Shown: positions 15,009 through 33,781 of the stretch, one piece after another
How the letters are laid out: every line of letters begins with the position of its first letter
Position numbering within the stretch: the first letter of the stretch is position 1
From: an uncultured Acidimicrobiaceae bacterium
Lineage (GTDB): Bacteria; Actinomycetota; Acidimicrobiia; Acidimicrobiales; SZUA-35
Direction of reading: 5' to 3'
Assembly (NCBI GenBank): GCA_964551835.1
Contig: CAZKEM010000092.1
Coordinates: 1,598-65,597 of the forward strand
DNA: 64,000 bases
Made by a program: the position numbers and the translations under genes
Notes under the pieces: generated by a model
Database searches by the model: none
What the model was told of the DNA's origin: nothing
The model's input: the letters and a program-made list of their open reading frames with translations, nothing else

Positions 15009-17549
15009 ATGACAAGCGGAAACTTAGGCAACTTGGGCGATCACATTCGCCAACTTTCTCGGACGCCAAACCTTTTGGTCGCCTGCGACTACGACGGAAC
15101 CCTGGCCCCGCTCGTCGATGACCCGATGAAGGCTCATCCCAATCGTGACTCTGTTGCCGCGCTGCGGCAGCTCGCCGAGCTTTCAAACTCCCATGTCGCT
15201 GTCATATCTGGACGCAGCCTTCGGGATCTTGCGACGCTATCGCGCTTCCCAGAGGAGATCCGTCTCGTCGGCAGCCACGGTAGCGAGTTCGAGCTTGGCT
15301 TTGCATCAAAGCTAAACCCCGATCTGATCCGGCTACGAACCCAAATCACGCAGGCCATCGATGAAATCGCGAGCCGGTACGGTGCTGTCTCTGAAGAGAA
15401 GCCGACCGGGGTAACGTTCCACACGAGGAACTTCGACCAAGAAACCACCGATGCCGCAATAGCCGAAGTCCACTCTGTGGTTTCCCAATTTGACCAAATC
15501 CACACCCGAACGGGCCACGATGTAATCGAGATGTCGGTCATCGAGACCAACAAGGGCACAGCCATCGAGACCATTCGGTCACAGGTAGGGGCTTCGGCGG
15601 TACTTTTTATTGGCGACGATGTTACCGACGAAGACGGTTTCGCAGTACTAACGGGTCCGGACATTGGTGTGAAAGTAGGGCCTGCTCCAACGGCTGCCCC
15701 GTTCCGTGTAACGAGCACCGAAACGGTCGCAGAAATTCTGGCGCTTATTGCAGAGCTTCGAGGCTCCTGGCTACGTGGCGCAGGTTTAACGCCGATCGAA
15801 GATCACTCGGTTCTGTCTGACCTACGAACCGCGGCGGTACTAGCTCCCGACACCAACGTAACCTGGATGTGCGCCCCGAGGATTGATTCGGCCTCCATTT
15901 TCGCCGAACTATTGGGCGGTCCAGCGGCCGGCCACTTCAGGATCAAGCCGTCAGATGGTTCCGATGCTTTACGTCAGCGATACATCGCCAATACGATGCA
16001 TACGAAGACCGATTTCGACAAGTTCTCAGTAATAGACTTCCTTGATGTCTCTAGCGGACGTACCCGCCGCAAGGCTGGGCGCACCGACCTAATCCGGACA
16101 ATTCGAGGGTCGGGGGAAGTCCAAATCGAGTTTGCGCCACGAGTTAACTTTGGGCGGACTCCAACGCTACTAGAGGTCCGCCCTGATGGCATCGTGGTCA
16201 ACGGTGGCGCCGACCTGATGGTTCTACGCTCCGAAGGCGTCAACTGGACCGTCACGAAAGACGGCGTTCACGAGACGGCGGTTGGCACCGCTACGTTGGG
16301 CGACGACGCGCTAGTCCTTGAGCTTCGCTGCGGAAGTGGGACCCTTAAGCCTGGAGCAAAACTTGCCGTCGATCGCCAAAGTGACAGCGAAGAGTACTGG
16401 GCTAGTTGGGTCAAAAAGCTCACCCTTCCCAAGCTTCAACAAGCTCGGGTTTCGAGAAGCGCATTGGTGTTGAAGTCTCTCTGCCATGGACCGACGGGCG
16501 CTATTTTGGCGGCGGCTACAACCAGCCTGCCGGAACATATCGGCGGTGTCCGCAACTGGGACTACCGTTATTGCTGGCTTCGTGATGCCGCTCTGACCGC
16601 GGCGAGTCTGGTGCGTCTTGGTTCGAATGGCGAAGCAATGAGCTATCTCGACTGGGTCTTGCGGATCCTGGAAACAGGTAAGGAACCAGAACGACTTTCA
16701 CCTCTCTACAACGTGGCCGGCCACCATCTACCGCCAGAGGCCGAAATAGCAGAACTCCCGGGGTACGGAAGTTCCCGACCAGTCCGAATCGGAAATGCTG
16801 CCGACGGTCAGGTCCAACTCGACGTGTTCGGGCCGATAGTCGATTTAGTTCACGTGTTGCTCAACAGCGGCGAAGAACTTTCGACTGAACATTGGCGACT
16901 TGTCGAGGCCATGGTGCTGGCCGTTTCTCGTCGTTGGAAAGAGCCGGATCATGGGATTTGGGAAATCCGCAAACCGGCACGCCATCATGTGTACACCAAA
17001 GTAATGTGTTGGGTCACGGTCGATCGGGCCATCGCAATCGCCCGGGAGTTTCTTGACCGCGAACCCAAAGCATGGATTGCTTTACGTGAAGAGATCGCAA
17101 ACGACGTAACAGCTAACGGCTGGAAACCAGGCCTGAATAGCTTTACAGCAGCATACGTCGGTGACGATCTCGACGCATCGGTCTTAGCAATCGGCATGTG
17201 GGGGCTTCTCGATCCGAAAGACCCAAGGTTCGTGGCCACGGTCGAGGCGGTAGTCAAAGGTCTGCAAGACGGACCAACCGTGTACCGTTACCTCGACGAT
17301 GACGGCCTTCCGGGCAAAGAAGGCGGCTTTCACCTGATGACTACATGGCTGATCGAGTCCTTAGCGCTTATCGGCCGCACCGACGACGCAAACATGTTGT
17401 TTCAAGAATTCTGTGATCTTACTGGGGCGACCGGCTTGCTCAGCGAGGAGTTCGACCCCGAGAGCGGTCAGGCGTTGGGCAACTTGCCGCAGGCCTATTC
17501 CCATCTTGGGCTAATCAACAATGCAATCTTGCTCGAGAAACTATCGTAG
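15009..17549 (+). CDS. otsB: trehalose-6-phosphate phosphatase (HAD) fused to glycoside hydrolase family 15 (trehalase/glucoamylase-like) domain
   Basis: 846 aa. HAD motifs LLVACDYDGTL and FIGDDVTDEDGF. The GH15 N-domain reads DLRTAAVLAPDTNVTWMCAPRIDSASIFAELLG. The catalytic domain has VRNWDYRYCWLRDAA and LSEEFDPESGQALGNLPQAYSHLGLINNA. Confidence 0.85.
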   Translation: MTSGNLGNLGDHIRQLSRTPNLLVACDYDGTLAPLVDDPMKAHPNRDSVAALRQLAELSNSHVAVISGRSLRDLATLSRFPEEIRLVGSHGSEFELGFASKLNPDLIRLRTQITQAIDEIASRYGAVSEEKPTGVTFHTRNFDQETTDAAIAEVHSVVSQFDQIHTRTGHDVIEMSVIETNKGTAIETIRSQVGASAVLFIGDDVTDEDGFAVLTGPDIGVKVGPAPTAAPFRVTSTETVAEILALIAELRGSWLRGAGLTPIEDHSVLSDLRTAAVLAPDTNVTWMCAPRIDSASIFAELLGGPAAGHFRIKPSDGSDALRQRYIANTMHTKTDFDKFSVIDFLDVSSGRTRRKAGRTDLIRTIRGSGEVQIEFAPRVNFGRTPTLLEVRPDGIVVNGGADLMVLRSEGVNWTVTKDGVHETAVGTATLGDDALVLELRCGSGTLKPGAKLAVDRQSDSEEYWASWVKKLTLPKLQQARVSRSALVLKSLCHGPTGAILAAATTSLPEHIGGVRNWDYRYCWLRDAALTAASLVRLGSNGEAMSYLDWVLRILETGKEPERLSPLYNVAGHHLPPEAEIAELPGYGSSRPVRIGNAADGQVQLDVFGPIVDLVHVLLNSGEELSTEHWRLVEAMVLAVSRRWKEPDHGIWEIRKPARHHVYTKVMCWVTVDRAIAIAREFLDREPKAWIALREEIANDVTANGWKPGLNSFTAAYVGDDLDASVLAIGMWGLLDPKDPRFVATVEAVVKGLQDGPTVYRYLDDDGLPGKEGGFHLMTTWLIESLALIGRTDDANMLFQEFCDLTGATGLLSEEFDPESGQALGNLPQAYSHLGLINNAILLEKLS

Positions 17550-21850: not shown

Positions 21851-22516
21851 ATGACCGAGTCGTTTCTGCTATTCCCCGACCCTGCCCCGCCTGAAGTTGT
21901 CCGCTGCCTAGATCTCGCCGACTACGAGTGGAAAACCGCTGAGCTTGCGAGTCCAGCTCAGCACGATGAGGACTGGACTGGAGCAATCATCGACTTAAGC
22001 ACCGAGCCAACTGAAGGCTGGCAACTCTGCAAGCGACTCAAGCGGGGCGATTTGCCAGTCGAACCGTTGCTTGTGCTGGTTGCAGGCAATCAGCTTCCGG
22101 ACATGCAGCTCCGAGATGACCTCTTCGATGACTTCATGATTACTCCGTTCCACCCGTTAGAACTCGAGGCGAGGCTCCGACATCTGCTTTGGAAGGCTGG
22201 CAGAGGTGCCCGACCTGAGGTGCTCTCCTATGGGCCTCTGACAATCAATATCGATACCTATCAGGCTGAGGTTGACAGCCGCAAGATGGACCTTACCTTC
22301 ATGGAGTACGAGCTTCTGAAGTTTCTGACGTCAAACCCAGGGCGAGTATTCGACCGAGAAACTCTTCTCAGCAGAGTCTGGGGTTACGAATACTATGGTG
22401 GAGCGAGAACGGTCGACGTCCACATCCGGCGGCTCCGAACCAAGCTTGGAGAAGAACACGCTCACCTTATCCAAACCGTCCGCAGCGTCGGCTACAAGCT
22501 TGGGCAGGCTCGTTAA
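21851..22516 (+). CDS. glnR: GlnR-type OmpR-family nitrogen regulator with atypical receiver domain
   Basis: 221 aa. The C-terminal wHTH MDLTFMEYELLKFLTSNPGRVFDRETLLSRVWGYEYYGGARTVDVHIRRLRTKLG..VRSVGYKL closely resembles actinobacterial GlnR. The receiver-like N-domain is degenerate. Confidence 0.75.
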   Translation: MTESFLLFPDPAPPEVVRCLDLADYEWKTAELASPAQHDEDWTGAIIDLSTEPTEGWQLCKRLKRGDLPVEPLLVLVAGNQLPDMQLRDDLFDDFMITPFHPLELEARLRHLLWKAGRGARPEVLSYGPLTINIDTYQAEVDSRKMDLTFMEYELLKFLTSNPGRVFDRETLLSRVWGYEYYGGARTVDVHIRRLRTKLGEEHAHLIQTVRSVGYKLGQAR

Positions 22517-25500
22517 GACTCGTACTGTTCAGATGCCCGCAACGCAATCGTCGAGATGCGGTACCCGGCATCGGTTTCGACCAGCCAGAGGTCGCTTCGG
22601 CGTCGTTCGAACGGATGTGATTCGAGCTGGCTTCCATCAGCGTCGAGTAGAACATACGGTGGGTGTGCGACTTCGACTTCCAACCGGACTGGCGCATCGG
22701 TGTTTATTACATTCACGGTAAGCACCATTGGTTTCTCCGCAATAATTTTATGCCCGGCTTCGAGGTAGTGTGAACGCATCTCCTGGGCCATTTCGTAGAC
22801 TTCGGTGCCCGGGGCATAGACCTCGTCGACGGAGTGGTCGCCAGGCGACGACGCAAGTTGAAAGTCAGCTAGAATCAACCGACTAGCCTCGGCCGACCAG
22901 TCGACGTTCGATCGAGTCCTCGATGGGAAAGGCTTCGGTCGCTCGGGACTGGGGTTACGACCGTCCGATGACCGACGTGCGAAGAGTCCAATGAACCCGG
23001 CCTTCGATGTCCGACGAACTTTGCTTGATCGACTCTGACCGGCTTGCATCTCTGGGACTGGTTTTTGAGGACCTTCCAGAAGCGACCGTTTGACGAGTGC
23101 TGTATGCATCTCGGCCACTGACCCAAATCGTCTCGACGCTCGTTTATCTACCGCCTTTTCGACGACATCTCTAAACCAGTTCGGCACGCCGGTCAGCGGT
23201 GCAAGTTCTTCGGTTGCCACCCGGTTAAAAATCGTTGGAATCTCGTCGCTATCCGAATCGTCAGAAACGAACGGACGACGCCCAGCGACCATCGACCATA
23301 ACAGGACGCCAAGTCCGTAAACATCGACCAGCCCCCCGTCAGAGCCCTTATTGCCAACCGCTAGAACTTCGGGCGGAGAGTAATTGGGGGTGAAGGCCGG
23401 CCGGGACGATAACGAACGTCCATCTACTATCTCGGTTGACCCGAAGTCGAGCAGGTGAGGTTGACCATCAGCGTCGAGCAACACATTGCTGGGCTTTAGA
23501 TCTCGGTGGAAAACCCCTCTGCGGTGACACGCAGCTAAGGTCTCGGCCAACTTACAGCCTAATTCGTAGGCCTCATGCCAGTTATACGGTTGGTTTCGGA
23601 TTCCGTTCGCGATTGTCCCACCCTCGAGGTAGCTCAAGACCAAATATGGCGAGCCTCCCTCCGTCACGCCTGAGCCCAAAAGCTCCACGACGCCATCTAC
23701 TTCTGACAATGCCTCCAAGGCATCTTTCTCCCGATCGAACCGACGCCGCCCGCTTTCGCTATTGGTGGTGGTTAGGACTTTCAGAGCTACGACAGAACCA
23801 GCCGAATCGACTGCTCGATAAACGACAGCGAATCCACCCTCTCCTACGATCGTCAAGTCAGAAAATCCATCTATTGGTTCAGGCGTGGAATCGGTTTGTC
23901 GGTCGTCCTCGATTTGGTCGTCAGAAGATTCAGGCGACTCGGTCACTTCTGAGGTCGAGGGAGCAACTTCGTCAATGTCTTCGTCAATTTCGAGATCCGA
24001 ACCGTCAGGCACGGCGTCGATAGGACTCTCTTCTCGGTCATTGGTCAGAGAAGGTTCGAAGCCAGTCGATCGAGCTAGCGGGCGCAGCCTGGACGGTTTC
24101 GCCGGCCGAGCACGCTGCCGGGCCAGAGGCTGCGTGGCAAACGCAAGCATCGACGGACCCACCGAAGTTAACTTGTTCGGAGTGAGTGACGACAACGACC
24201 ACTCCGATCCGAACGTCGAGCCATACCGAAGAACTGCAGGTAGTAACACGTTGATGGCTGCAGTAACGACCGCCGGCACAACGACGAACGCCATTCCTAT
24301 CGGCCTGATAAACGGGGCGTCAGCGAACATCCATGCTGACCCAATGGCTGCGAGCGAACAAAACCCGGCACTCGATGACCTCATCGGGGTTCGCATTCGA
24401 TAAGCCACCGACCCATACCGAGGACTTGATACCGAACGATGTTCAAACGTACCGCGTTCCTTAGACGTCCAATATGAAACCTCGAACCATCCCAGAGCTA
24501 TCGAAACCACAAGAACCACTAACACCAGCTCGTCTACCGAGCCAGCCGAAACAAGTGCTGAACCGATACCGATCGAACCCAATAGGAGAAACAGCCGAGT
24601 AGCAAAAAACAGCAGCACGGTCGAAGGGCTCCCGCCAACCGCAAGAGCTGCCACTAGCGCAGCGAGACAACTGATGAGCACGAGAGACATAAGCAGCGAC
24701 CCACTCCGCCGTTCCAGGTCAACTTCGTCAAGCCGGGTACCGTCGACTCTGAAGCCCAACGTTTCTTCCCGCTCTTGGAGATCTAAGACTAGTTGCTGGG
24801 TAGATCGAGATCGCTCGCCACCGTTCGGCACCACCAAAACCATTTGAGAGTCATCCGTGTCCAGGCCAACAAACGGACGACTCCGCCCAATCTCGGCATT
24901 GTCGACACTGAGACCTTGTCGTACCAAAGCAGACGACGTTTGCACCATTTGCACTGCTGGCCAGTTTGATACTTCGACGACAAACCGATCGACTAATTCG
25001 GTTTCGGGTTTCGGTGAAGCTGTGAGCACGATCGCCTCAGTCAGATCACCTGCACTCGCTAGTTCGGCCGCCAAGGAAGAACGAACCTCTAAGGAACTTT
25101 GGTCCAGAGAACCAGCAGACGGGCGGCCGAAGGAGTTCAGGACACCCACTACCGTTACGAACACGATCACGCCAGCCACGCTGAGCTTAATAATCTTGGC
25201 CAGTTCTTGTTCACGAAGGACATCCAGAAGCCGCGGCGAAGGTCGACCAAAACTAACTCCACCAACCTCAACCAGCAACGAACCTAACGCCACGCCAACA
25301 ATCGCCCCAGCACAAGCACCAATCAAGATACTGAGCGTCGGGTTGCTCGGTGGAAAAAACAGCTCGACAAACAACCAAACAAGGAATAGTTGGCCGATGA
25401 CAACGGCCATTGGAAAAGCTTGCCCACGGACTACGTCGAAGCTACGAACCATGGTCGACCGCCGATCGCCTGATGCTGAAGGGGTGCGGGTCGCGTGGTA

Positions 25501-26205
25501 GCCGATCACTGCCACAACAATTTGGCTAGCGGCGATTGCCGGCAGGTTCGTCGAGAGTACTGACCCGTTAAAGCCCGGGTTCAATAGTGAACCCAGGATC
25601 GTGGCTAACGTAGCGGAAGCGCCAAGTCCGCAAGCAACCCCAATGCCAACCCGCCACCCATAGGTGAGCGCTAGAATGGCGCCAGCGACAACCGACACCA
25701 AGCCAACGGCGAGCAACGCTTCTCGTTCGATCGATTGACGCAGCCGAACATCCGCTGAGCCGGATCCTAGTACGAATGTCGAAGAGGCCGTCGTATTGGT
25801 CTCGACGATGTTTTCGACCTGGTCTAAAAGTTCTGGGTCGGCGTGTTGGTCAGAGTTGATGTAAATGACAGAGGTGTCCACCGAAGTTGGCACAACAGCA
25901 AAATTCGATGTTTCGGTTGTCTTGAGGAGAGCCAAAGAAATAGCCTCGACGTCGCCTTGGAGAGCTGCCGCATCTCCCTGTACCACAATTGCCAAGTCTG
26001 GCGTCTTCCCCTCAGACCACATAGTCACGTTTGACTGGGCAGACGCCGAACTGAAGATTGCTGTGATACAGAACAGCACAAGACCGAATCCAACCAAGGC
26101 CTGACACAAATATTCTCGATGAGTTAAGAAGTCGTTAAAGCGGCTGTCTGAACGCCCATCGGAATTGGGTCTTCCCATACTGCGTCTCACTGGTCTACCC
26201 TGCAT
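22513..26205 (-). CDS. RND/MMPL-like 12-TM membrane domain fused to Ser/Thr protein kinase domain and a C-terminal unknown domain
   Basis: 1230 aa. Topology is TM1, about 100-aa loop, TM2-6, TM7, about 145-aa loop, TM8-12. An acidic linker is followed by an intact Hanks kinase: GEGGFAVVYRA, VALKVL, HRDLKPSNVLL, DFGS, SPPEVL, DVYGLGVLLW. The last 140 aa or so are unassigned. Confidence 0.8.
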   Translation of the reverse strand: MQGRPVRRSMGRPNSDGRSDSRFNDFLTHREYLCQALVGFGLVLFCITAIFSSASAQSNVTMWSEGKTPDLAIVVQGDAAALQGDVEAISLALLKTTETSNFAVVPTSVDTSVIYINSDQHADPELLDQVENIVETNTTASSTFVLGSGSADVRLRQSIEREALLAVGLVSVVAGAILALTYGWRVGIGVACGLGASATLATILGSLLNPGFNGSVLSTNLPAIAASQIVVAVIGYHATRTPSASGDRRSTMVRSFDVVRGQAFPMAVVIGQLFLVWLFVELFFPPSNPTLSILIGACAGAIVGVALGSLLVEVGGVSFGRPSPRLLDVLREQELAKIIKLSVAGVIVFVTVVGVLNSFGRPSAGSLDQSSLEVRSSLAAELASAGDLTEAIVLTASPKPETELVDRFVVEVSNWPAVQMVQTSSALVRQGLSVDNAEIGRSRPFVGLDTDDSQMVLVVPNGGERSRSTQQLVLDLQEREETLGFRVDGTRLDEVDLERRSGSLLMSLVLISCLAALVAALAVGGSPSTVLLFFATRLFLLLGSIGIGSALVSAGSVDELVLVVLVVSIALGWFEVSYWTSKERGTFEHRSVSSPRYGSVAYRMRTPMRSSSAGFCSLAAIGSAWMFADAPFIRPIGMAFVVVPAVVTAAINVLLPAVLRYGSTFGSEWSLSSLTPNKLTSVGPSMLAFATQPLARQRARPAKPSRLRPLARSTGFEPSLTNDREESPIDAVPDGSDLEIDEDIDEVAPSTSEVTESPESSDDQIEDDRQTDSTPEPIDGFSDLTIVGEGGFAVVYRAVDSAGSVVALKVLTTTNSESGRRRFDREKDALEALSEVDGVVELLGSGVTEGGSPYLVLSYLEGGTIANGIRNQPYNWHEAYELGCKLAETLAACHRRGVFHRDLKPSNVLLDADGQPHLLDFGSTEIVDGRSLSSRPAFTPNYSPPEVLAVGNKGSDGGLVDVYGLGVLLWSMVAGRRPFVSDDSDSDEIPTIFNRVATEELAPLTGVPNWFRDVVEKAVDKRASRRFGSVAEMHTALVKRSLLEGPQKPVPEMQAGQSRSSKVRRTSKAGFIGLFARRSSDGRNPSPERPKPFPSRTRSNVDWSAEASRLILADFQLASSPGDHSVDEVYAPGTEVYEMAQEMRSHYLEAGHKIIAEKPMVLTVNVINTDAPVRLEVEVAHPPYVLLDADGSQLESHPFERRRSDLWLVETDAGYRISTIALRASEQYES

Positions 26206-26382: not shown

Positions 26383-27807
26383 ATGAAACAACAGGGGATA
26401 CAGAACCTCGTTGTCGCTGCCAACCGCCTACCTGTTCGAAAAGTCACAGACCCAAACGGGGAACAAACTTGGAAAACCAGCCCTGGCGGGCTCGTCTCTG
26501 CTCTAGCGCCTTCGATATCGAACACCGAACGCCTTCAATGGATTGGTTGGGCCGGTGACGTTATAGGCCCTGACGACCCGCCCGACAATGGCATCGAACC
26601 GTTTGTTGTCGATGGCATCGAACTCCAACCTGTCGCATTGACCAAAGAAGAGAAGAGCCTTCACTACGATGGCATGTCAAACGGCACGCTTTGGCCGCTG
26701 TACCATGACAAGGTTGGCCCGGTAGCATTCCACCGCCACTGGTACCTTGGCTACAAGACCGTCAACCAACGATTCGCAGACGCGATATCGAGCGTGGCTC
26801 CCAAGGGAGCAACTGTCTGGATCCACGACTACCAACTTCAACTCGTTCCGGCGATGATCAAGGAGAACCGACCCGATCTTAAAGTCGGCTTCTTCTTACA
26901 TATCCCATTTCCGCCTGAAGAGCTGTTTATGCAGCTCCCCTGGAGGCGGTCCCTGGCAAAGGGAATCCTCGGTAGCGACTTGGTTGGTTTCCAAACACCG
27001 GACGGTGCTGACAATTTTCGACGACTCATTCGGGCCATCGAATTGGTTGAAGGCGACAGCGACGACAATGTTATCTATGAAGGTCGCGAAGTCGCCATCG
27101 GAACCTTCCCGATCGGCATTGTTGGCGAACGATACGAGTCGGTCGCCAGAAGCGAAGCCACGACTATGCGCACTCAGGACTTGCGCGCTCGTCTTGGCCA
27201 ACCCCATGTAGTGTTACTGGGCGTCGATCGTCTCGACTATACAAAAGGCATCGATGTGAGGCTTCGGGCCTTCAAAGAACTTTTGGCTGAAGGTCGGGTT
27301 AGCCCGACTCGCGTTTCTATGGTCCAAGTCGCTGAACCGTCTCGTGACAACGTGAAGGCGTATATCGCCCTTCGGGCCAAGGTCGAACAGTTGGTTGGTG
27401 AAATCAATGGCGACTACGGACGCGTCGGTTTTCCAGTTGTGAACTATATTCACCAAACGCACGGTTTGGAAGAGTTGATCTCGCTGTACCGAGTCGCAGA
27501 CGTGATGGTCGTGACCCCTTTTAGGGATGGTATGAATCTGGTAGCGAAAGAATACGTCTCCTGTCGATACGACAACACTGGCGTGCTCGTTCTCTCCGAA
27601 TTCGCCGGAGCCGCCCATGACCTTGAAGGTGCGCTGCTCGTAAATCCACACGATATCGACGGGCTGAAAGATGCTTTAGTCCAAGCCATCGGCATGGCCT
27701 CAACTGAAGCTGAACAACGTATGGAGAAGATGCGGGAGACAGTTCAAGACAACGATGCGGTCAGTTGGGCAAGTAGTTTCCTACAGGCGATTCCTCAAAT
27801 CGATTAG
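26383..27807 (+). CDS. otsA: alpha,alpha-trehalose-phosphate synthase (GT20)
   Basis: 474 aa. VVAANRLPV, PGGLVSAL, WIGW, FFLHIPFPP, LLGVDRLDYTKGI, PFRDGMNLVAKEY. SD GGGAG upstream of the ATG. Confidence 0.9.
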   Translation: MKQQGIQNLVVAANRLPVRKVTDPNGEQTWKTSPGGLVSALAPSISNTERLQWIGWAGDVIGPDDPPDNGIEPFVVDGIELQPVALTKEEKSLHYDGMSNGTLWPLYHDKVGPVAFHRHWYLGYKTVNQRFADAISSVAPKGATVWIHDYQLQLVPAMIKENRPDLKVGFFLHIPFPPEELFMQLPWRRSLAKGILGSDLVGFQTPDGADNFRRLIRAIELVEGDSDDNVIYEGREVAIGTFPIGIVGERYESVARSEATTMRTQDLRARLGQPHVVLLGVDRLDYTKGIDVRLRAFKELLAEGRVSPTRVSMVQVAEPSRDNVKAYIALRAKVEQLVGEINGDYGRVGFPVVNYIHQTHGLEELISLYRVADVMVVTPFRDGMNLVAKEYVSCRYDNTGVLVLSEFAGAAHDLEGALLVNPHDIDGLKDALVQAIGMASTEAEQRMEKMRETVQDNDAVSWASSFLQAIPQID

Positions 27808-29610: not shown

Positions 29611-29748
29611 ACTTTGCCTTCCACCGATGTCAAATTAGACACCGCTTTAGATTCGACGACCAGCTAACACCTACCACATTAACGCTCTTGAGTGTACCTC
29701 AGTAAACAAAGGTCCAGGCATGAGTAACCTACCCCAGGACTTCAGAGG

Positions 29749-29788
29749 CCCGTTAGCGCAGGGTAGGCGGATACCGCGCGCTAACGGG
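29749..29788. other. 40-nt near-perfect hairpin in a 640-bp divergent intergenic region
   Basis: cccgttagcgc ... gcgctaacggg (11 bp) with an inner 4-bp extension ggta/tacc. Confidence 0.5.
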
Positions 29789-30248
29789 ACTTTCTGAGCG
29801 CTAGCCCCCCCATAAAAAGAGCTAGTGAGGCGCCCGCACTCAAGAACTGAAGCTTCCCACCCTGAAATTCAGGAAAGGACGTCTGTTCTCGTCGGCAGGG
29901 TCGTGCCCGCGCTGTCTACAGAACATCTAAACAACAAGCATCCACATTCGTCAACACAAACTCGAAGTTTCGATGAACCGTCGTTAGTCAATCGCTTCTG
30001 ACGATGCAAGTGGCGTTTGGCACTTGGGCTGGTAGTAGGCGTGGTCGACTCAATTCCCTCCATTTTCGGGGAAACCTTGGAGTTGAAACGGCAACCATGT
30101 AGTTTATAAGACAACGAAACATGATCCATATCCATGAATTCGAGCTTTACGTTTGGACAAACATCCTTTCTTCTGTTCGATCCATGCGACTTTAGTGGTA
30201 GTTTCACATAGAGAGTAATTAAGAGGGCTAACGGGGGACTGACGAACG

Positions 30249-32627
30249 GTGTCTGACATGGATGAAACTCCAACTTCGCGATCAAGCTGGTTTGGCTTTG
30301 AAAGAGTACGCGTTGATTACAAGAATCACGCGGTTGATATTACGGTCGGGTCTGAGACGGCTTGGGACCGTTCCCACCTTCGCCGACTCCGCCAGTCGAG
30401 CGATCTACCTGGACTCGTCCCAATCATCGATGCCGATGTCTCTTCTGAGGGACGGCCTTATGCCATAACCTCAGCAGTCGACGAACCAACCCTGGCCGAC
30501 CTTTTAGCGGCCGATGACGGCGTTAGCTGGAATGACAGCACAGGTATCACCGAAGCAGCTGCAAGAGCATGCCACGACGCCCATGAACGAGGTCTCTTTC
30601 ACGGTTCGATAAGCCCTAGCGATATTTATGTAATAGGCGACGAGATTGCAGTCGACGGTCTAGGGCTGACCCGAGGCGGAGGCGTCCCCGCCGACCGTTC
30701 CCAGTGGGTCGCGCCAGAAGTCCTCGCTGGCGACGCACCAACTGCACGATCCGATGTCTACTCCCTCGGCAAGCTTCTCGAAACGGCACTTGGCGACTCG
30801 ATCGAACTCGTACCTCGTTCCGTCAAACGATTGATGATGTGGTCTAGCTCTGATTCGGCTGATACCCGACCCCGCACGGCTTCGGAGTTCGCAGAGATCC
30901 TCAGCGACGGACTAGGAGACGCTAAGAGCTCGTATCGTCCTGCATTTATCCCAACGATACGGGCCAACAACCTTACGGAAGATGCGGAACGGGCGGTCGC
31001 AGACACCCAGACAGATATCGCCCTTGCATCTGTCGTCACGTCTGAAATCGAAGTTGAATCTCAAACAGAAGTTGAATCACAGACACTGACGGACGAAGAC
31101 TCCGTCGAAACGCCTGATGACATCAGCGTGGATGACGACGCGACCGAACAACTCGACACTGTCGACCTTGAGCGGGTCCCTCAAGAAGACGACATAACCG
31201 AAGAAGTCTCGCTGACAACCGACCCAGCCGAGGCCACATCCGATGATGAGGAGAGCTCAGGTTCGTTGACGAAAGCGGCCGGCGCAGCAGCAGCGGTAGG
31301 TGCTGCAGGAGCAGCCTCAAGCAAATTGGGCAGCAACAAGGGGGCTTCAGGCGACGCCGACTCCGACAGTTCGAAGAGCGGCTCTAAATCAAAGGGCTCC
31401 AAGAAAACGAAAACCAGCGCCAAAACTAAGACCAGTAAAGGTTCTCCCAAGAAAGCAGTGGAAGAGACCACCAAGACCGCTGGAATTGCCGCCAGCGAAG
31501 CAGTGACCGTCAAAAGTACCGGCACAAGTAATGCAGACAAATTTTCCTACCAAGACGTGTCACTAACTGAAGATCGTGGGATGTCTCGGTTTTTAATCCC
31601 AGCCCTTATTGTAGTTGCAATACCATTCCTAATCTGGGCTCTCGTTCGTTCAGGCGGCGGCGGCACTGATACTGCTGACTCTTCTCCTAATACGACGTCA
31701 GGAGCCAGTCAAGCAGGTCCAGCTATTACCGAGGGCACTGAACCAGACAGCGTGGAAAACGCCGTTCCTCCAGTTTCCGAAGCACCAGAAACCACACCAG
31801 CACCAGAAACCACACCAGCACCAGAGACCACACCAGCACCAGAACCGGTCAGCGAAGCACCGGCGGCTATCGCTGCTTCCGATGCAGCGATCCAGGTAGT
31901 TCACGCCGTCCCGGAAACACCGGTTGACGTCTATGTCGATGGCGAACTCACCGCACCCGCATTCCAACCTGAGAGCATTGCCGGCCCTGTCGACCTGGAA
32001 GCAGGCGATCACGACATTGCGATATTCGCAGCCGAAACTAATCCTGCGCAGTCCGCCGACGACCGTACCGACGATGCCGTTATAGAGCAGACAGTCACCG
32101 CCTCAGGTGATCCGACAACGTTGGTAGCCCACCTCGATGACAGTGAGAACCCGGTGCTCAGCGCATTTGCAGAGAGCTTAACCGAGCTCGAGGCTGGCGA
32201 AACCCGTGTTGTGGTAAGAAACCTAACCACGACCGCCGGGGACGCTACCGTAGTTGTCGATGGAGTAGAACAGTCTGCCCCTCTAGCAAATGGAGACGAA
32301 CTCGAAATCGTTCTTCCTGCTGGGGAACATACCATCACCATGCTAGGCACAAACGGCGAAGAGGTCTTCAGTTCAGATCTGGACCTAGTCGAAGGTGAAC
32401 TGACAACAGTCGGATTCATCGGATCGTCTAGAATCGGATCGGAAAGCGTCGTTGTTCAACGATATTCTGGCCTTGGTTCCGCTCCTTCAGAAGTACCAAC
32501 TGGCGACTCTGGGCTCTTAGAAGGAGGTCCAAGCTCCGGAGGGGCTCGGACGGTTATTGGCCTTGTCCTTATGATGCTGCTAAGCGGCGCCATGATTGCA
32601 TTCAAGCGTCGCCGCAGCATGGTATGA
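30249..32627 (+). CDS. pseudokinase / TM / tandem DUF4397-like ectodomain protein with C-terminal sorting-signal-like tail
   Basis: 792 aa. The kinase-like core has WVAPEVL and SDVYSLGKLL, but the catalytic loop is FHGSISPSD (no HRD Asp/Lys), and there is no Gly loop and no VAIK Lys. Acidic and Lys/Ser-rich linkers precede a TM (FLIPALIVVAIPFLIWALV). (APETTP)3 is followed by two DUF4397-like units (IQVVHAVPETPVDVYVDG, TRVVVRNLTT..ATVVVDG). The tail is EVPTGDSG...hydrophobic...KRRRSMV. Confidence 0.75.
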   Translation: MSDMDETPTSRSSWFGFERVRVDYKNHAVDITVGSETAWDRSHLRRLRQSSDLPGLVPIIDADVSSEGRPYAITSAVDEPTLADLLAADDGVSWNDSTGITEAAARACHDAHERGLFHGSISPSDIYVIGDEIAVDGLGLTRGGGVPADRSQWVAPEVLAGDAPTARSDVYSLGKLLETALGDSIELVPRSVKRLMMWSSSDSADTRPRTASEFAEILSDGLGDAKSSYRPAFIPTIRANNLTEDAERAVADTQTDIALASVVTSEIEVESQTEVESQTLTDEDSVETPDDISVDDDATEQLDTVDLERVPQEDDITEEVSLTTDPAEATSDDEESSGSLTKAAGAAAAVGAAGAASSKLGSNKGASGDADSDSSKSGSKSKGSKKTKTSAKTKTSKGSPKKAVEETTKTAGIAASEAVTVKSTGTSNADKFSYQDVSLTEDRGMSRFLIPALIVVAIPFLIWALVRSGGGGTDTADSSPNTTSGASQAGPAITEGTEPDSVENAVPPVSEAPETTPAPETTPAPETTPAPEPVSEAPAAIAASDAAIQVVHAVPETPVDVYVDGELTAPAFQPESIAGPVDLEAGDHDIAIFAAETNPAQSADDRTDDAVIEQTVTASGDPTTLVAHLDDSENPVLSAFAESLTELEAGETRVVVRNLTTTAGDATVVVDGVEQSAPLANGDELEIVLPAGEHTITMLGTNGEEVFSSDLDLVEGELTTVGFIGSSRIGSESVVVQRYSGLGSAPSEVPTGDSGLLEGGPSSGGARTVIGLVLMMLLSGAMIAFKRRRSMV
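31782..31847 (+). repeat. 3.6 x 18-bp in-frame tandem repeat encoding (APETTP)n
   Basis: gcaccagaaaccacacca repeated, with one synonymous change in copy 3. Confidence 0.9.
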
Positions 32628-33238
32628 ACCGAAAGTTCCTTTCCGGAACGTTCGGCCTTATAGCCACCGTAGCAATGGTGGCGGCGGCAGGAACCGGGGG
32701 CGCGACAGCCTCCGCTGACCCTGATGCACCCCAACAACCAGCCAACACGGCAGCTGTACCAATTCGCTCGGGTAACCCCTTGGATGTACAACCATCCAAG
32801 GGACCTCGACCGGTAAGCATAAGGGTTGGAGACCTCAACCTCGACGCATCCGTTATCCCAGTCGGCGTCGACGACGAAAAGCGACTCGATGTCCCTTCCG
32901 CGGACTTAGTCGGCTGGTACCAGTACAGCGCGACCCCTGGTGAGACGGGTACAACAGTCCTAGCAGCCCATGTTGACTATGGCGGCGAAGAAGGTGTCTT
33001 CTTCAACCTTGACCAATTGCAAATCAACCAGCGCTTCGAGGTAGAACTCGAGGACGGCAGTATTAGACAATACCAAGTGACGGCAAACTCAACTTATAAC
33101 AAAGTCGACCTTCCTGGTGAAGAGCTATTCCGCAAAGACGGCGAGCCAACACTTCAGCTGGTCACGTGCGGCGGAGAGTTCGATGCGGACGCACGTTCGT
33201 ACGAAGCAAACGTTGTGGTAAGCGCTGTCCCAGTCTAA
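32624..33238 (+). CDS. class F-type sortase
   Basis: 204 aa. N-terminal signal/anchor, active-site His (LAAHVDYGG), the TC motif LQLVTCGG and a downstream Arg. The ATG overlaps the upstream stop (ATGA). Confidence 0.8.
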   Translation: MNRKFLSGTFGLIATVAMVAAAGTGGATASADPDAPQQPANTAAVPIRSGNPLDVQPSKGPRPVSIRVGDLNLDASVIPVGVDDEKRLDVPSADLVGWYQYSATPGETGTTVLAAHVDYGGEEGVFFNLDQLQINQRFEVELEDGSIRQYQVTANSTYNKVDLPGEELFRKDGEPTLQLVTCGGEFDADARSYEANVVVSAVPV

Positions 33239-33259
33239 ACCTAACGCCTTTATAGAGAA

Positions 33260-33301
33260 GGTGCGCTCCCCGAGCCCTCGACCTGCTTGGGGAGTCGCAC
33301 C
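33260..33301 (+). terminator. candidate intrinsic terminator-like hairpin after the sortase gene
   Basis: ggtgcgctcccc - 17 nt - ggggag(t)cgcacc, a 12 bp stem with one bulge, 22 nt after the stop. Only a 2-nt T run follows, so it is not canonical. Confidence 0.35.
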
Positions 33302-33781
33302 TTGAAACAGCCAATGGCTGCTATTAACATTGACCCGAACGCTGGTACTGAACCTGACAACAATAGCCAGCAGGTCAACGGAAAGGGAACTTCTGTTTCG
33401 CCGAGCGCACGTTTACCCGGCAATTAAGAAACTAGGTGATTTTCTCCAGTTTGTGAAATCGAATGCGCGCAATTTATTGATATAGAAGAATATCGATGCT
33501 ATTAATAGCTTGTCGAATGAACCTCCAGAAACGCACTGCTAGAGGCGATTATGTGCTCATATTTTGAAGAAAACTTGCGCCCTCTTATCCCAAAATAAAT
33601 AAGAAAATATTCGGTGGTTAACCTCCCAGAGTACCTAAAGCTCAGAATCTGAGCAAAGAACTCAAGGGTTCCAGAAGTGAAGCCACCCTCCTTCTTTGCA
33701 GTTGTGTCGTCAAGATAACAACGACAGGGAGATTGGAGTCCTATTCGCCGACCCAGTCCACACAGAGGTAGCCTCGACTAC

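What the first reader, a model, noticed from the sequence alone, without database searches (positions are those of the whole stretch)
30249..33238. Pseudokinase-TM-DUF4397 protein with a C-terminal sorting signal, translationally coupled to a class F sortase
- The 792-aa protein has a cytoplasmic kinase-like domain whose catalytic loop is FHGSISPSD. The HRD Asp, the Lys and the Asn are all replaced, and there is no Gly loop or VAIK Lys.
- It then has one TM helix, (APETTP)3, and two DUF4397-like beta domains.
- It ends with EVPTGDSG, a spacer, a hydrophobic helix and KRRRSMV. That is the tripartite layout of a sortase sorting signal, although the motif is xPTG rather than canonical LPxTG and the spacer is long.
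- The next gene starts inside its stop codon (ATGA). It has class F sortase hallmarks (HVD...TCGG).
- If this protein is processed, it would stay membrane-anchored by its N-proximal TM while its C-terminus is linked to peptidoglycan.
- That gives a membrane-to-wall tether ending in a cytoplasmic pseudokinase scaffold, a plausible envelope-integrity sensor.
- Class F sortase substrates and functions are poorly defined.
Basis: partly seen in the sequence, partly recalled or inferred. Interest (0 to 1): 0.75.

Follow-up and report, generated by a model that had tools for sequence, protein, structure and literature searches.

The report
Pseudokinase surface protein with dedicated sortase
A two-gene operon in an Acidimicrobiales bacterium encodes a membrane protein with a dead kinase domain inside the cell, two DUF4397 beta-sandwich domains outside and a non-LPXTG C-terminal sorting tail, followed by its own class F-type sortase; comparative genomics shows this tail-plus-sortase pairing is widespread in Actinomycetota, which gives the so-far function-less class F sortases a candidate substrate.

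Summary
The 792-aa ORF has an N-terminal Hanks-kinase fold (AF2 pLDDT 92; best PDB matches PknB/PknA) with all catalytic residues lost family-wide. It is followed by a disordered linker, TM1, a Pro/Thr-rich ecto-linker with an 18-bp x3.6 repeat, and two DUF4397 domains. The tail is SAPSEVPTG, a 15-aa spacer, TM2 and KRRR. The sortase starts in an ATGA overlap.

Comparative genomics:
- All 44 Acidimicrobiales orthologues whose contig continues past the gene have the sortase directly downstream, and 38 of 45 pairs overlap by 4 nt.
- The DUF4397 + tail + sortase unit is much wider. In two sortase-centred scans of Actinomycetota genomes, 79/80 and 68/79 sortases had a secreted ~270-aa DUF4397 protein with a related tail directly upstream.
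- Seven Pseudonocardia-type loci carry an unrelated DUF4142 protein with the same kind of tail instead.

The tail therefore behaves as a portable signal of a dedicated His-Cys-Asn (class F-type) sortase. The pseudokinase version is a lineage-specific fusion.

Cleavage, wall linkage and the "tether/sensor" role are inferred and untested. The motif position matching the scissile Thr varies (T/S/A/G) across the wider family.

The parts
30249..32627 (+). Gene for the 792-aa pseudokinase-TM-DUF4397x2-sorting-tail protein. It has a GTG start, with GGGGGA 10 nt upstream.
   Evidence: ORF; start region. Orthologues begin at the same position (MNxQDET...). About 50 orthologues have the same architecture.
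30270..31004 (+). Cytoplasmic Hanks-type pseudokinase domain (about residues 8-252). It is the most conserved part of the protein.
   Evidence: AF2 pLDDT 92. Foldseek best matches are PknB/PknA/Stk1, E about 1e-11. phmmer to PknB gives E=1.9e-8. Identity to orthologues is about 55%, against about 40% for the ectodomain.
30597..30623 (+). Degenerate catalytic loop FHGSISPSD (residues 117-125), replacing HRDLKPxN. The DFG position is GLG (residues 137-139).
   Evidence: Residue-by-residue alignment to PknB. The family consensus is FHG[AS][LI]SP..[IV].
31005..31586 (+). Cytoplasmic low-complexity linker (residues 253-446). The first half is acidic (net -28) and the second half is Lys/Ser/Thr-rich (net +7), with 56 Ser+Thr in all.
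   Evidence: Composition. Poorly conserved and of variable length, 125-216 aa.
31590..31646 (+). TM1 (residues 448-466, FLIPALIVVAIPFLIWALV), a signal-anchor. Its N-flank is basic (family consensus RRRNRAG), so the N-terminus is inside.
   Evidence: Hydropathy peak 2.77; family consensus.
31647..31883 (+). Extracellular Pro/Thr/Glu/Ala-rich linker (residues 467-545), which includes the (APETTP) repeat encoded by an 18-bp x3.6 tandem repeat at 31781-31844.
   Evidence: TRF. In the family the linker is 69-254 aa and 76-95% P/T/S/A/E/D/G. It is absent from the standalone secreted homologues.
31884..32183 (+). DUF4397 domain 1 (residues 546-645), a beta-sandwich.
   Evidence: Pfam PF14344 E=4.5e-16. 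AF2 pLDDT about 90. Fold resembles the tandem Ig-like extracellular domains of PepT1/PepT2.
32184..32471 (+). DUF4397-like domain 2 (residues 646-741), a beta-sandwich and an internal duplicate of domain 1.
   Evidence: AF2 model. hhalign of domain 1 against domain 2 gives probability 88%, E=2.8e-6.
32478..32504 (+). Candidate sortase recognition motif S-A-P-S-E-V-P-T-G (residues 744-752). The predicted scissile bond is T751|G752. The motif lies in a low-confidence (flexible) segment between the last strand and TM2.
   Evidence: P746, P750 and G752 are invariant; A745, V749 and T751 are at least 90% conserved. Logos. pLDDT is 56-65 here. EVPTG is cleaved T|G by a sortase in S. pyogenes (PMC3019223).
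32550..32615 (+). TM2 (residues 768-785, with invariant G780) followed by the basic stop-transfer tail KRRR (786-789).
   Evidence: Hydropathy; AF2 helix; G780 invariant and R787/R789 at least 90% conserved.
32624..33238 (+). Gene for the 204-aa class F-type sortase. Its ATG lies inside the upstream gene's last codons (ATGA overlap).
   Evidence: Pfam Sortase E=1.6e-20. NCBIfam class_F_sortase 141 bits. Present directly downstream in 44/44 orthologous loci. 38/45 pairs have the 4-nt overlap.
32636..32692 (+). Sortase N-terminal membrane anchor or signal segment (residues 5-23).
   Evidence: Hydropathy; the conserved N-terminus MNRRVLSG... supports this start.
32969..32971 (+). Sortase catalytic His116 (in AAHVD).
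   Evidence: Invariant in 45 orthologues and in distant cassette sortases.
33167..33169 (+). Sortase catalytic Cys182 (in TCGG).
   Evidence: Invariant.
33209..33211 (+). Invariant Asn196 (with Tyr193) at the place of the canonical sortase Arg. Arg191 is only 60-85% conserved.
   Evidence: It matches the published statement that Arg is replaced by Asn in actinobacterial class F sortases (PMC6998099).

Best explanation
This is a dedicated sortase-substrate operon.

Proposed mechanism:
1. The 792-aa protein inserts with its pseudokinase and disordered linker in the cytoplasm. TM1 acts as a signal-anchor. The Pro/Thr-rich stalk and two DUF4397 beta-sandwich domains lie outside. TM2 plus KRRR acts as a stop-transfer (shown by sequence and model).
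2. The co-translated class F-type sortase (His116-Cys182-Asn196) recognises the flexible juxtamembrane motif SAPxx[VI]P[TS]G. It cleaves before the invariant Gly and transfers the new C-terminus to a cell-wall acceptor, presumably lipid II/peptidoglycan (inferred from gene pairing, motif conservation and the EVPTG precedent).
3. TM1 is not removed, so the product would stay in the membrane while its far end is fixed in the wall. The 70-250-aa stalk would provide the slack.
4. The catalytically dead but strongly conserved kinase fold would act as a cytoplasmic docking or allosteric module, like the MviN pseudokinase. This would couple a wall-attached ectodomain to cytoplasmic Ser/Thr-kinase/FHA-type signalling or to localisation at sites of wall synthesis (speculative).

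Evolution: an ancient actinobacterial cassette (secreted DUF4397 protein + tail + sortase) acquired a pseudokinase-TM module in place of the signal peptide in one Acidimicrobiales lineage.
For: Gene pairing:
- 44/44 orthologous loci that extend 3' have the sortase directly downstream. 38/45 pairs overlap by 4 nt.
- Only these two genes are always adjacent. The other neighbours vary.

The tail as a linear motif:
- The motif, hydrophobic helix and Arg tail are conserved in all 45 pairs, down to 34% identical pseudokinase relatives.
- The motif sits in a low-pLDDT linker, so it is not part of the fold.

Portability of the tail:
- Sortase-centred scans found a DUF4397 + tail gene directly upstream in 79/80 loci. 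The exception is a 1.3-kb contig.
- A second scan found it in 68/79 loci. Three of the exceptions are truncated contigs.
- Seven further loci have a tail-bearing gene instead. All five tested by Pfam are DUF4142, a fold unrelated to DUF4397, with the tail ..AVDAG[ST]GGQAA-TM-RRR.
- This meets the criteria for a dedicated sorting system given in bioRxiv 10.1101/2023.06.07.544157.

Independent support for a sortase-processed C-terminus:
- P0048 has the same pseudokinase-TM-stalk but a different ectodomain ending in a canonical LPVTG-TM-RRR signal, with no adjacent sortase.
- (E/Q/V)(V/P)PTG is cleaved T|G by a sortase in S. pyogenes (PMC3019223).

Sortase competence:
- The sortase keeps His, Cys and the class F-type Asn in every sequence.

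Pseudokinase:
- Kinase fold, all catalytic residues lost, yet it is the most conserved region.
- D61 aligns with PknB D76 and is at least 90% conserved.

Stalk:
- The stalk is present only in the membrane-anchored version.

Published hint:
- An mBio 2026 paper notes that genes next to srtF1/srtF4 of Actinoplanes encode signal-peptide + C-terminal TM + basic-tail proteins without a pentapeptide, and that these 'may encode substrates' (PMC13251363).
Against: - No experiment exists for any member.
- The motif is not LPXTG. No NCBIfam C-terminal sorting-domain model matches the tail.
- Across the wider family the residue at the scissile-Thr position is T 69 / S 43 / A 43 / G 33 of 188 tails, and the Pro can be D/Q/N/S. 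This is unusual for sortases, so the cleavage site or the chemistry may differ.
- The spacer to TM2 is 15 aa, longer than in classical signals.
- The sortases score 129-141 bits on class_F_sortase, below the curated 166. They have Asn instead of the canonical Arg.
- An invariant Gly inside TM2 could mean TM2 is a permanent structural helix.
- A quadruple class F sortase deletion in Actinoplanes had no observed phenotype (PMC13251363).
- The signalling or scaffold role of the pseudokinase has no conserved genomic partner to support it. The neighbouring real kinase is adjacent only in L001.
Confidence: 0.55

Rival explanations
1. The sortase acts as a processing switch and does not anchor the protein to the wall. 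It cleaves at the motif but resolves the acyl-enzyme with water or a non-wall nucleophile. The effect is to remove TM2 (releasing one end of a two-TM hairpin), or to shed the standalone proteins. In the fused protein, cleavage changes the state of the pseudokinase, analogous to site-1 proteolysis.
For: - The same pairing and motif evidence as the best explanation applies.
- The Arg-to-Asn active site and the variable P1 residue suggest non-classical chemistry.
- In Nakamurella alba an ECF sigma/RskA-type anti-sigma pair follows the sortase.
Against: - Sortases characterised so far are transpeptidases. The class F enzyme of P. acnes is reported to act on LPXTG like sortase A (PMC8225981).
- P0048 carries a canonical LPVTG wall-anchor signal on the same architecture.
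- The Pro/Thr stalk is present only in the TM1-anchored form. That fits a need to reach the wall.
Confidence: 0.17
2. There is no cleavage. The protein is a stable two-TM hairpin. The conserved juxtamembrane motif and TM2 are a docking site for the sortase-fold protein, which acts non-catalytically or on another substrate.
For: - Gly780 is invariant within TM2.
- The spacer is long and the motif is non-LPXTG, with no sorting-domain HMM match.
- Class F mutants had no observed phenotype.
Against: - His, Cys and Asn are invariant in about 200 sortases from these cassettes. That argues for catalysis.
- The same tail sits on the unrelated DUF4142 fold next to a paralogous sortase.
- Standalone partners have a cleavable signal peptide plus this tail, which is the classical layout of sorted proteins.
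- Conserved residues within the TM segment are also seen in other sorting signals (bioRxiv 10.1101/2023.06.07.544157).
Confidence: 0.15
3. The system is pilus-like. The dedicated sortase polymerises DUF4397 subunits (tandem Ig-like domains with an EVPTG-type motif, as in S. pyogenes pilins) through a Lys side chain.
For: - A tandem beta-sandwich protein with its own sortase resembles a minimal pilin operon.
- The closest motif precedent (EVPTG) is a pilin motif.
- Some Modestobacter loci have two tandem DUF4397 genes.
Against: - The window's ectodomain has no Lys at all. 19 of 47 family members have none, and no Lys column is conserved.
- The N-terminal TM anchor would prevent fibre extension.
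Confidence: 0.03
4. The pseudokinase is functionally irrelevant and serves only as an N-terminal anchor. The protein is simply a surface-displayed DUF4397 protein.
For: The standalone secreted forms show that the ectodomain + tail + sortase works without any cytoplasmic domain.
Against: - The pseudokinase is the most conserved part: about 55% identity against about 40% for the ectodomain, with many invariant surface-type residues.
- It is retained in about 25 clusters at 50% identity, down to 34% identity.
- It is also retained in the LPVTG variant P0048.
Confidence: 0.1

Closest known systems
S. pyogenes FCT-pilin sorting motif (E/Q/V)(V/P)PTG, processed by the class B sortase Spy0129/SrtC1 (PMC3019223)
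   Same: The core EVPTG in the window protein is identical. In the precedent, cleavage between Thr and Gly is experimentally established. The sortase is specialised and encoded next to its substrate.
   Different: - The enzyme class differs (class B with Arg, against class F-type with Asn).
- The precedent polymerises pilins through a Lys, and this ectodomain has no Lys.
- Here the motif extends upstream (SAPxx), and the Thr position is T/S/A/G in the wider family.
Class F sortase (NCBIfam NF033748; P. acnes SrtF; Streptomyces and Actinoplanes SrtF paralogues)
   Same: - It is the best HMM match by a wide margin.
- It has the His-Cys-Asn signature reported for actinobacterial class F (PMC6998099).
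- RefSeq names the Nakamurella alba cassette enzyme 'class F sortase'.
   Different: - It scores below the curated cut-off (129-141 against 166 bits).
- The only characterised class F enzyme is described as a housekeeping LPXTG enzyme. These enzymes are one-to-one with an adjacent non-LPXTG partner.
Dedicated sortase/single-target systems, for example SrtB-IsdC (NPQTN) and the class GN 'marine sortase' TIGR03784 with its one target. This comparison is from general knowledge. The criteria for dedicated systems are in bioRxiv 10.1101/2023.06.07.544157.
   Same: There is a one-enzyme-one-adjacent-substrate gene pair. The motif is non-canonical. Co-operonic conservation is the main evidence.
   Different: The motif, the sortase class and the substrate families (DUF4397, DUF4142) all differ. 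In the window the substrate also keeps an N-terminal TM anchor and a cytoplasmic domain.
M. tuberculosis MviN/MurJ pseudokinase domain (ActPs3 family) and PknB-type receptor kinases (PMC12599244)
   Same: - It is an actinobacterial cytoplasmic Hanks fold with degraded catalytic motifs, joined by a TM segment to an extracellular domain.
- The juxtamembrane linker is Ser/Thr-rich.
- The MviN domain works as a phospho-dependent scaffold that regulates wall synthesis.
   Different: - By sequence and fold the window domain is closest to active PknB/PknA. MviN was not among the hits listed.
- The ectodomain is DUF4397 and not a carbohydrate-binding or PASTA domain.
- No known pseudokinase family is described with a sortase signal.
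AMIS_11010 / AMIS_36440 next to srtF1 / srtF4 of Actinoplanes missouriensis (PMC13251363)
   Same: They are described as having a signal peptide, a C-terminal TM and a basic tail, with no pentapeptide, and they are adjacent to class F sortases. The authors suggest they may be SrtF substrates. This is the same layout as the standalone cassette found here.
   Different: Their domain content and motif were not reported and could not be retrieved here. No pseudokinase is mentioned.

Membership tests
Sortase superfamily (Pfam PF04203) | Sortase domain HMM above the gathering score | tested here: met
   E=1.6e-20, 73.5 bits against a cut-off of 26.6, residues 66-204.
Sortase superfamily | Catalytic His and Cys (TLxTC-type) conserved | tested here: met
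   His116 (AAHVD) and Cys182 (TCGG) are invariant in 45 orthologues and in distant cassette sortases.
Sortase superfamily | Catalytic Arg after the Cys | tested here: not met
   Arg191 is only 60-85% conserved and is absent in Nakamurella and other cassette sortases. Asn196 and Tyr193 are invariant instead.
Class F sortase (NCBIfam NF033748) | HMM score at or above the curated cut-off (166 bits) | tested here: not met
   141 bits for the window sortase and 129-140 bits for three standalone-cassette sortases. It is still by far the best-scoring class, with the next at about 30 bits.
Class F sortase | His-Cys with Arg replaced by Asn (reported for actinobacterial class F, PMC6998099) | tested here: met
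   Asn196 is invariant; literature statement.
LPXTG-type cell-wall sorting signal | Pentapeptide LPXTG (or an accepted variant such as LAXTG, NPXTG or LPXTA) | tested here: not met
   The motif is SEVPTG. In the wider family it is VP[TSAG]G, IQTG or VDAG. No NCBIfam sorting-domain model hits the tail at E<=1.
LPXTG-type cell-wall sorting signal | Tripartite layout: motif, hydrophobic helix, basic tail at the extreme C-terminus | tested here: met
   Motif at 744-752, TM2 at 768-785, KRRR at 786-789. Conserved in all 45 pairs.
LPXTG-type cell-wall sorting signal | Cleavage by sortase and amide linkage to peptidoglycan | not testable with these tools
   This needs a biochemical assay or mass spectrometry.
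Dedicated C-terminal sorting system (criteria of bioRxiv 10.1101/2023.06.07.544157) | Regular co-occurrence of the enzyme and a single target as consecutive genes | tested here: met
   44/44, 79/80, 68/79 plus 7 DUF4142-type loci, and 3/3 look-ups.
Dedicated C-terminal sorting system | The signal is found on proteins that share no other similarity | tested here: met
   DUF4397 beta-sandwich proteins and DUF4142 proteins carry the same kind of tail next to sortases of one clade.
DUF4397 (Pfam PF14344) | HMM above the gathering score | tested here: met
   E=4.5e-16, 59.9 bits against 30.6, residues 546-665. The second copy is detected only by hhalign and structure.
Hanks-type Ser/Thr protein kinase (Pfam PF00069) | Bilobal kinase fold | tested here: met
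   AF2 pLDDT 92. Foldseek matches PknB/PknA/Stk1 over about 260 columns, E about 1e-11, TM 0.54-0.66.
Hanks-type Ser/Thr protein kinase | Catalytic residues: Gly loop, VAIK Lys, alphaC Glu, HRD Asp, catalytic-loop Asn, DFG Asp | tested here: not met
   HRDxKPxN is replaced by FHGSISPSD and DFG by GLG. The beta3 strand reads AVDITVG, with no Lys and no Gly loop. Pfam scores 14 bits against a cut-off of 31.7. The domain is therefore a pseudokinase.
ActPs3 / MviN-type bacterial pseudokinases (PMC12599244) | Complete loss of catalytic motifs, activation-loop deletion, TM segment C-terminal to the domain, actinobacterial | tested here: inconclusive
   - The motif loss, the C-terminal TM and the taxon fit.
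- The activation loop is about 10 residues shorter than in PknB, not the roughly 40-residue deletion described.
- MviN structures are not among the hits listed (top 50 Foldseek rows, best 60 phmmer rows).
- No family HMM was available.
Gram-positive pilin | Conserved Lys nucleophile (pilin motif) in the secreted domain | tested here: not met
   The window ectodomain has zero Lys. 19/47 orthologues have none, and no Lys column is conserved.

The most novel reading that the evidence does not exclude
Class F-type (His-Cys-Asn) sortases are, as a rule, one-to-one enzymes for an adjacent protein carrying a previously unrecognised sorting signal, [ST][AS]P-x-x-[VI]-P-x-G + TM + basic tail.

In Acidimicrobiales this module has been fused to a cytoplasmic pseudokinase. 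The result would be a single polypeptide that is covalently fixed in peptidoglycan at one end and embedded in the membrane at the other. Its attachment, which consumes lipid II, or the mechanical strain on its stalk would be read out inside the cell by the pseudokinase. That would be a new kind of envelope-state sensor.
Probability: 0.25. Interest if true: 0.88.

Novelty: new variant of a known kind. Interest (0 to 1): 0.72.

Why it matters
Class F is the one sortase class without a known physiological role.
- A 2026 study that deleted all four class F genes of Actinoplanes found no phenotype. It set aside the adjacent tail-bearing genes because they lack a pentapeptide (PMC13251363).
- The data here identify a conserved, adjacent candidate substrate family with a defined non-LPXTG motif across many culturable genera: Nakamurella, Modestobacter, Geodermatophilus, Blastococcus, Actinomadura, Thermomonospora, Cellulomonas and Pseudonocardia. 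The question can therefore be tested directly with a peptide-cleavage assay and fractionation.
- Motif-based substrate searches (LPXTG, LAXTG and the like) would systematically miss these proteins.

The Acidimicrobiales fusion adds something not described for sortase substrates or for the catalogued bacterial pseudokinase families. It is a protein predicted to bridge cytoplasm, membrane and wall covalently. If real, it would be a compact model for how wall attachment is communicated inward.

A sortase with relaxed P1 specificity (T/S/A/G) could also be of interest for protein ligation.

Tried and rejected
1. Tail-only profile (alignment A5, 39 tails) against the 5.8-billion-protein collection. 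It returned only 6 weak hits of 69-95 aa. The profile is too short to be informative, so it could not show which other families carry the tail. The DUF4142 case came from sortase-centred locus scans instead.
2. NCBIfam scan of the 58-aa tail and of a standalone DUF4397 protein: no model matched.
3. Rfam scan on the whole window: no hit. The promoter/terminator scan around the operon gave nothing above the shuffles.
4. Conserved partner genes:
   - The neighbouring 1230-aa active kinase is adjacent only in the closest relative, L001.
   - Genes between aroA and the operon vary (ABC ATPase, coiled-coil protein, glycosidase).
   - No partner was inferred.
5. Long stop-to-stop ORFs upstream of standalone DUF4397 genes looked like N-terminal fusions. 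They are high-GC open-frame artefacts, and the real proteins start at a signal peptide.
6. The pilus-polymerisation idea was rejected for lack of Lys.
7. I tried to reach the Actinoplanes missouriensis loci (AMIS_11010/36440). The supplements hold nothing, and a second sortase-centred genome scan returned no Actinoplanes.
8. P0053 (pseudokinase + TerC) was not used as evidence. Its Arg-rich middle looks like a frameshift or chimera.
9. Co-variation between the P1 residue and sortase residues was considered but not run, because P1 classes follow taxonomy and the test would be confounded.

Full report
**The observation**

The window holds an ORF at 30249-32627 (+, 792 aa, GTG start) and an ORF at 32624-33238 (+, 204 aa). 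They overlap in ...AGC ATG GTA TGA AAC..., so the sortase ATG lies within the last codons of the upstream gene. A GGGGGA sits 10 nt before the GTG. Orthologues start at the equivalent residue. Base composition is even across the window at about 55% GC. The neighbours are housekeeping genes: otsA, aroA, aminopeptidase N, a metallophosphoesterase, glutamine synthetase and others. The closest public relative of the region is an Acidimicrobiales MAG (L001, 72-90% protein identity to the neighbouring genes).

**N-terminal domain**

- Pfam sees only a sub-threshold kinase match (14 bits).
- An AlphaFold2 model of residues 1-258, built on 33 aligned sequences, is confident (pLDDT 92, pTM 0.89).
- Its best PDB matches are full-length Hanks kinase domains of M. 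tuberculosis PknB and PknA and S. aureus Stk1 (E about 1e-11, about 20% identity, about 260 aligned columns).
- phmmer against PDB sequences also puts PknB first (E=1.9e-8). It aligns PknB GIIHRDVKPANI with GLFHGSISPSDI and DFG with GLG, and the activation loop is about 10 residues shorter.
- The beta3 strand reads AVDITVG (no Lys). The beta1-beta2 turn has no glycines. The alphaC helix (RSHLRRLRQ) has no Glu.
- These losses are shared by all 47 aligned family members, whereas APE (WVAPEV), SDVYSLG and the subdomain XI Arg-Pro are kept.
- The domain is the best conserved part of the protein: about 55% identity to orthologues, against about 40% for the ectodomain.
- It is therefore a pseudokinase under purifying selection.
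- D61, at least 90% conserved, aligns with PknB D76. From my own knowledge, D76 lies in the back-to-back N-lobe dimer interface of PknB, which hints at dimer-type interactions. This is inference only.

**Pseudokinase family size**

An exhaustive HMMER search of 1.84 billion representatives found 19 clusters at E<=1e-30 and about 25 clusters that align over the whole domain. Below those, hits are ordinary HRD kinases. Every full-length member checked, down to 34% identity, carries the DUF4397 + tail module. The published catalogues of bacterial pseudokinases (ActPs1-3, GLW, CP1, DYD, DLHK) do not mention DUF4397 or sortases.

**Topology and ectodomain**

- Residues 253-446 are low-complexity: first acidic, then Lys/Ser/Thr-rich.
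- There are two hydrophobic segments, 448-466 (basic N-flank, consensus RRRNRAG) and 768-785, followed by KRRR. This gives N-in, ectodomain-out, C-in.
- After TM1 comes a 79-aa Pro/Thr/Glu/Ala stalk containing (APETTP) x3.6, encoded by an 18-bp tandem repeat at 31781-31844.
- In the family the stalk is 69-254 aa and 76-95% P/T/S/A/E/D/G.
- Pfam DUF4397 matches residues 546-665 (E=4.5e-16).
- The AF2 model of residues 530-792 (pLDDT 88) shows two beta-sandwiches, a low-confidence segment holding the motif, and a long terminal helix.
- The two sandwiches are related (hhalign 88%, E=2.8e-6).
- The fold resembles the tandem Ig-like extracellular domains of PepT1/PepT2, the HGSNAT luminal domain, the AlgF C-terminal domain and CBM41. 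This says little about function beyond a possible polymer- or protein-binding surface.

**The tail**

- The family logo is G-L-x-[ST]-A-P-x-x-[VI]-P-[TS]-G-[DN]-S-[GN]-L-L, then an acidic spacer, a roughly 20-residue hydrophobic helix and RRRR.
- P746, P750, G752, L756 and G780 are invariant.
- In the window the core is EVPTG. (E/Q/V)(V/P)PTG is an experimentally defined sortase site, cleaved between Thr and Gly, in S. pyogenes pilins (PMC3019223).
- The divergent branch of the family has VPSG or IPSG, and single members have IPAG or VDSG.

**The sortase**

- It matches Pfam Sortase (E=1.6e-20).
- Its best NCBIfam model is class_F_sortase at 141 bits. Other classes score at most 30, but the curated cut-off is 166.
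- His116 and Cys182 are invariant. The canonical Arg is not: Arg191 is 60-85% conserved and absent in distant members. Tyr193 and Asn196 are invariant instead.
- This matches the published statement that Arg is replaced by Asn in actinobacterial class F enzymes (PMC6998099).
- RefSeq names the Nakamurella alba homologue 'class F sortase'.
- No closely related structure is solved. The best PDB sequence hit is 4D70 at E=0.0012.

**Gene pairing in the family**

A genome scan returned 47 Acidimicrobiales loci. All 44 loci that continue past the 3' end of the gene have the sortase directly downstream. Counting the window, 38 of 45 pairs show the 4-nt ATGA/GTGA overlap. The wider synteny (otsA-aroA...pair...pepN) is conserved, but the genes in between vary. 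The functional unit is therefore the two-gene operon, and it is chromosomal and vertically inherited.

**The wider cassette**

- Searching with the C-terminal half found more than 80 proteins of about 270 aa from Nakamurella, Pseudonocardia, Microbacterium and many metagenomes. Each has a Sec signal peptide, the DUF4397 pair directly after it (no stalk) and a related tail, for example LHSAPSGVPSGAPSG..., APGGVPAGTGP..., TPPNQIQTGDSGLAA....
- Three of three such proteins looked up have a sortase gene immediately downstream. All three score best as class F, at 129-140 bits.
- A scan starting from the sortase returned 80 loci from many orders. 79 have a DUF4397-like ORF on the same strand ending just before the sortase. 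The exception is a 1.3-kb contig.
- A second scan seeded from Actinomadura gave 68 of 79. Three of the 11 exceptions are truncated contigs, and one has tandem sortases.
- The other seven, Pseudonocardia or Pseudonocardia-like, have a different gene upstream. All five tested by Pfam are DUF4142 proteins, unrelated to DUF4397, ending in ...AVDAG[ST]GGQAA-TM-RRR.
- A census of 188 tails gives VPTG 51, VPAG 41, VPSG 34, VPGG 33 and IQTG 13, plus rarer forms. The upstream Pro and the Gly are invariant in the 39-tail alignment.
- The tail therefore behaves as a portable module tied to this sortase clade. This is the pattern that curators of sorting signals use to recognise dedicated systems (bioRxiv 10.1101/2023.06.07.544157).
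- In the standalone cassettes the junction is usually a short gap. The tight overlap is typical of the fused family.

**Independent support from a variant**

P0048 has the same pseudokinase, linker, TM1 and Pro/Thr stalk. Its ectodomain is different, and it ends in a canonical LPVTG + helix + RRR signal with no sortase next to it. The architecture 'pseudokinase - TM - ectodomain - sortase signal' therefore exists with two different kinds of signal. This is hard to explain unless the C-terminus is indeed handled by sortases.

**Mechanism, and what is and is not shown**

- Shown: the architecture, the topology prediction, the pseudokinase status, the conserved linear motif in a flexible segment, the catalytically intact class F-type sortase, and the obligate gene pairing.
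- Inferred: the sortase cleaves before the invariant Gly and links the protein to the wall.
- Further inferred: because TM1 is an uncleaved signal-anchor, the product remains in the membrane and so bridges membrane and wall. The stalk occurs only in the TM1-anchored form, which fits that picture.
- Speculative: the pseudokinase relays or scaffolds something in the cytoplasm, by analogy with the MviN pseudokinase, which is phosphorylated by PknB and recruits FhaA (PMC12599244).
- Lys-dependent pilus polymerisation is excluded for this family, because the window ectodomain and 18 others have no Lys.

**Main caveats**

- The position of the scissile Thr is T/S/A/G in the wider family.
- The sortases fall below the NCBIfam class F cut-off.
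- The spacer is long.
- TM2 contains an invariant Gly.
- There is no experimental evidence. The one genetic study of class F sortases saw no phenotype.

**State of knowledge**

Reviews and a 2026 primary paper state that class F roles are unknown. [quoted passage not shown] No paper in the searched library links DUF4397 to sortases.

I therefore rate this a new variant of a known kind: a dedicated sortase-substrate pair. It has a new signal type, plus a lineage-specific fusion to a pseudokinase that has no described counterpart.

Noticed in passing
window 22513-26205 (-): This 1230-aa protein has an N-terminal multi-TM region, an intact Hanks kinase domain (Pkinase E=5.8e-39, with HRDLKPSN and DFG present) and a C-terminal domain of about 170 aa with no Pfam match. 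It is adjacent to the operon region only in the closest relative, L001, so it is not a conserved partner.
   Followed up: partly
window 15009-17549 (+): This is a three-part fusion protein: trehalose-phosphatase + trehalase-like N-terminal domain + GH15 glycosidase. It lies in the same region as otsA (26383-27807).
   Followed up: no
window 29611-30248 and 33239-33781: Non-coding gaps of about 640 bp and about 540 bp flank the two-gene operon. Neither has an Rfam family hit, a convincing promoter or a terminator consensus.
   Followed up: partly
window 32154-32627 (P0060): The public protein collection holds only a 157-aa C-terminal fragment of this ORF (starting at V636 read as Met). It does not hold the 792-aa product, so the gene appears to be mis-called or truncated in public annotation.
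   Followed up: no
L047 8001-10349 (same MAG as L004): This is a second copy of the pseudokinase-DUF4397 gene. Its N-terminal part is split over three reading frames, so it is a pseudogene or an assembly error. The DUF4397 + tail part and the sortase are intact.
   Followed up: no
L112, L114, L134, L151 (Modestobacter): Two tandem DUF4397 + tail genes with near-identical tails precede a single sortase. This would be one enzyme with two substrates.
   Followed up: no
L079 5736-6948 (Nakamurella alba): An ECF sigma factor and an RskA-type anti-sigma factor follow the DUF4397-sortase pair directly on the same strand.
   Followed up: no
L204, L206, L209, L212, L221, L228, L239 (Pseudonocardia and relatives): A paralogous class F-type sortase is preceded by a different gene whose product ends in ...AVDAG[ST]GGQAA-TM-RRR. 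All five tested by Pfam are DUF4142 proteins. The same kind of tail therefore sits on an unrelated fold.
   Followed up: partly
L083 544-2613 (P0048): This family member has the same pseudokinase, TM1 and stalk, but a different ectodomain with no Pfam match and a canonical LPVTG sorting signal. The next gene is a DAO-family oxidoreductase, not a sortase.
   Followed up: partly
L202 1172-3683: Two class F-type sortase genes lie in tandem, with no DUF4397-like ORF detected upstream.
   Followed up: no
L044 17147-18406 (-): An unrelated protein with a canonical LPVTG + TM + basic tail lies in an Acidimicrobiales locus. These genomes therefore also have classical sortase substrates.
   Followed up: no
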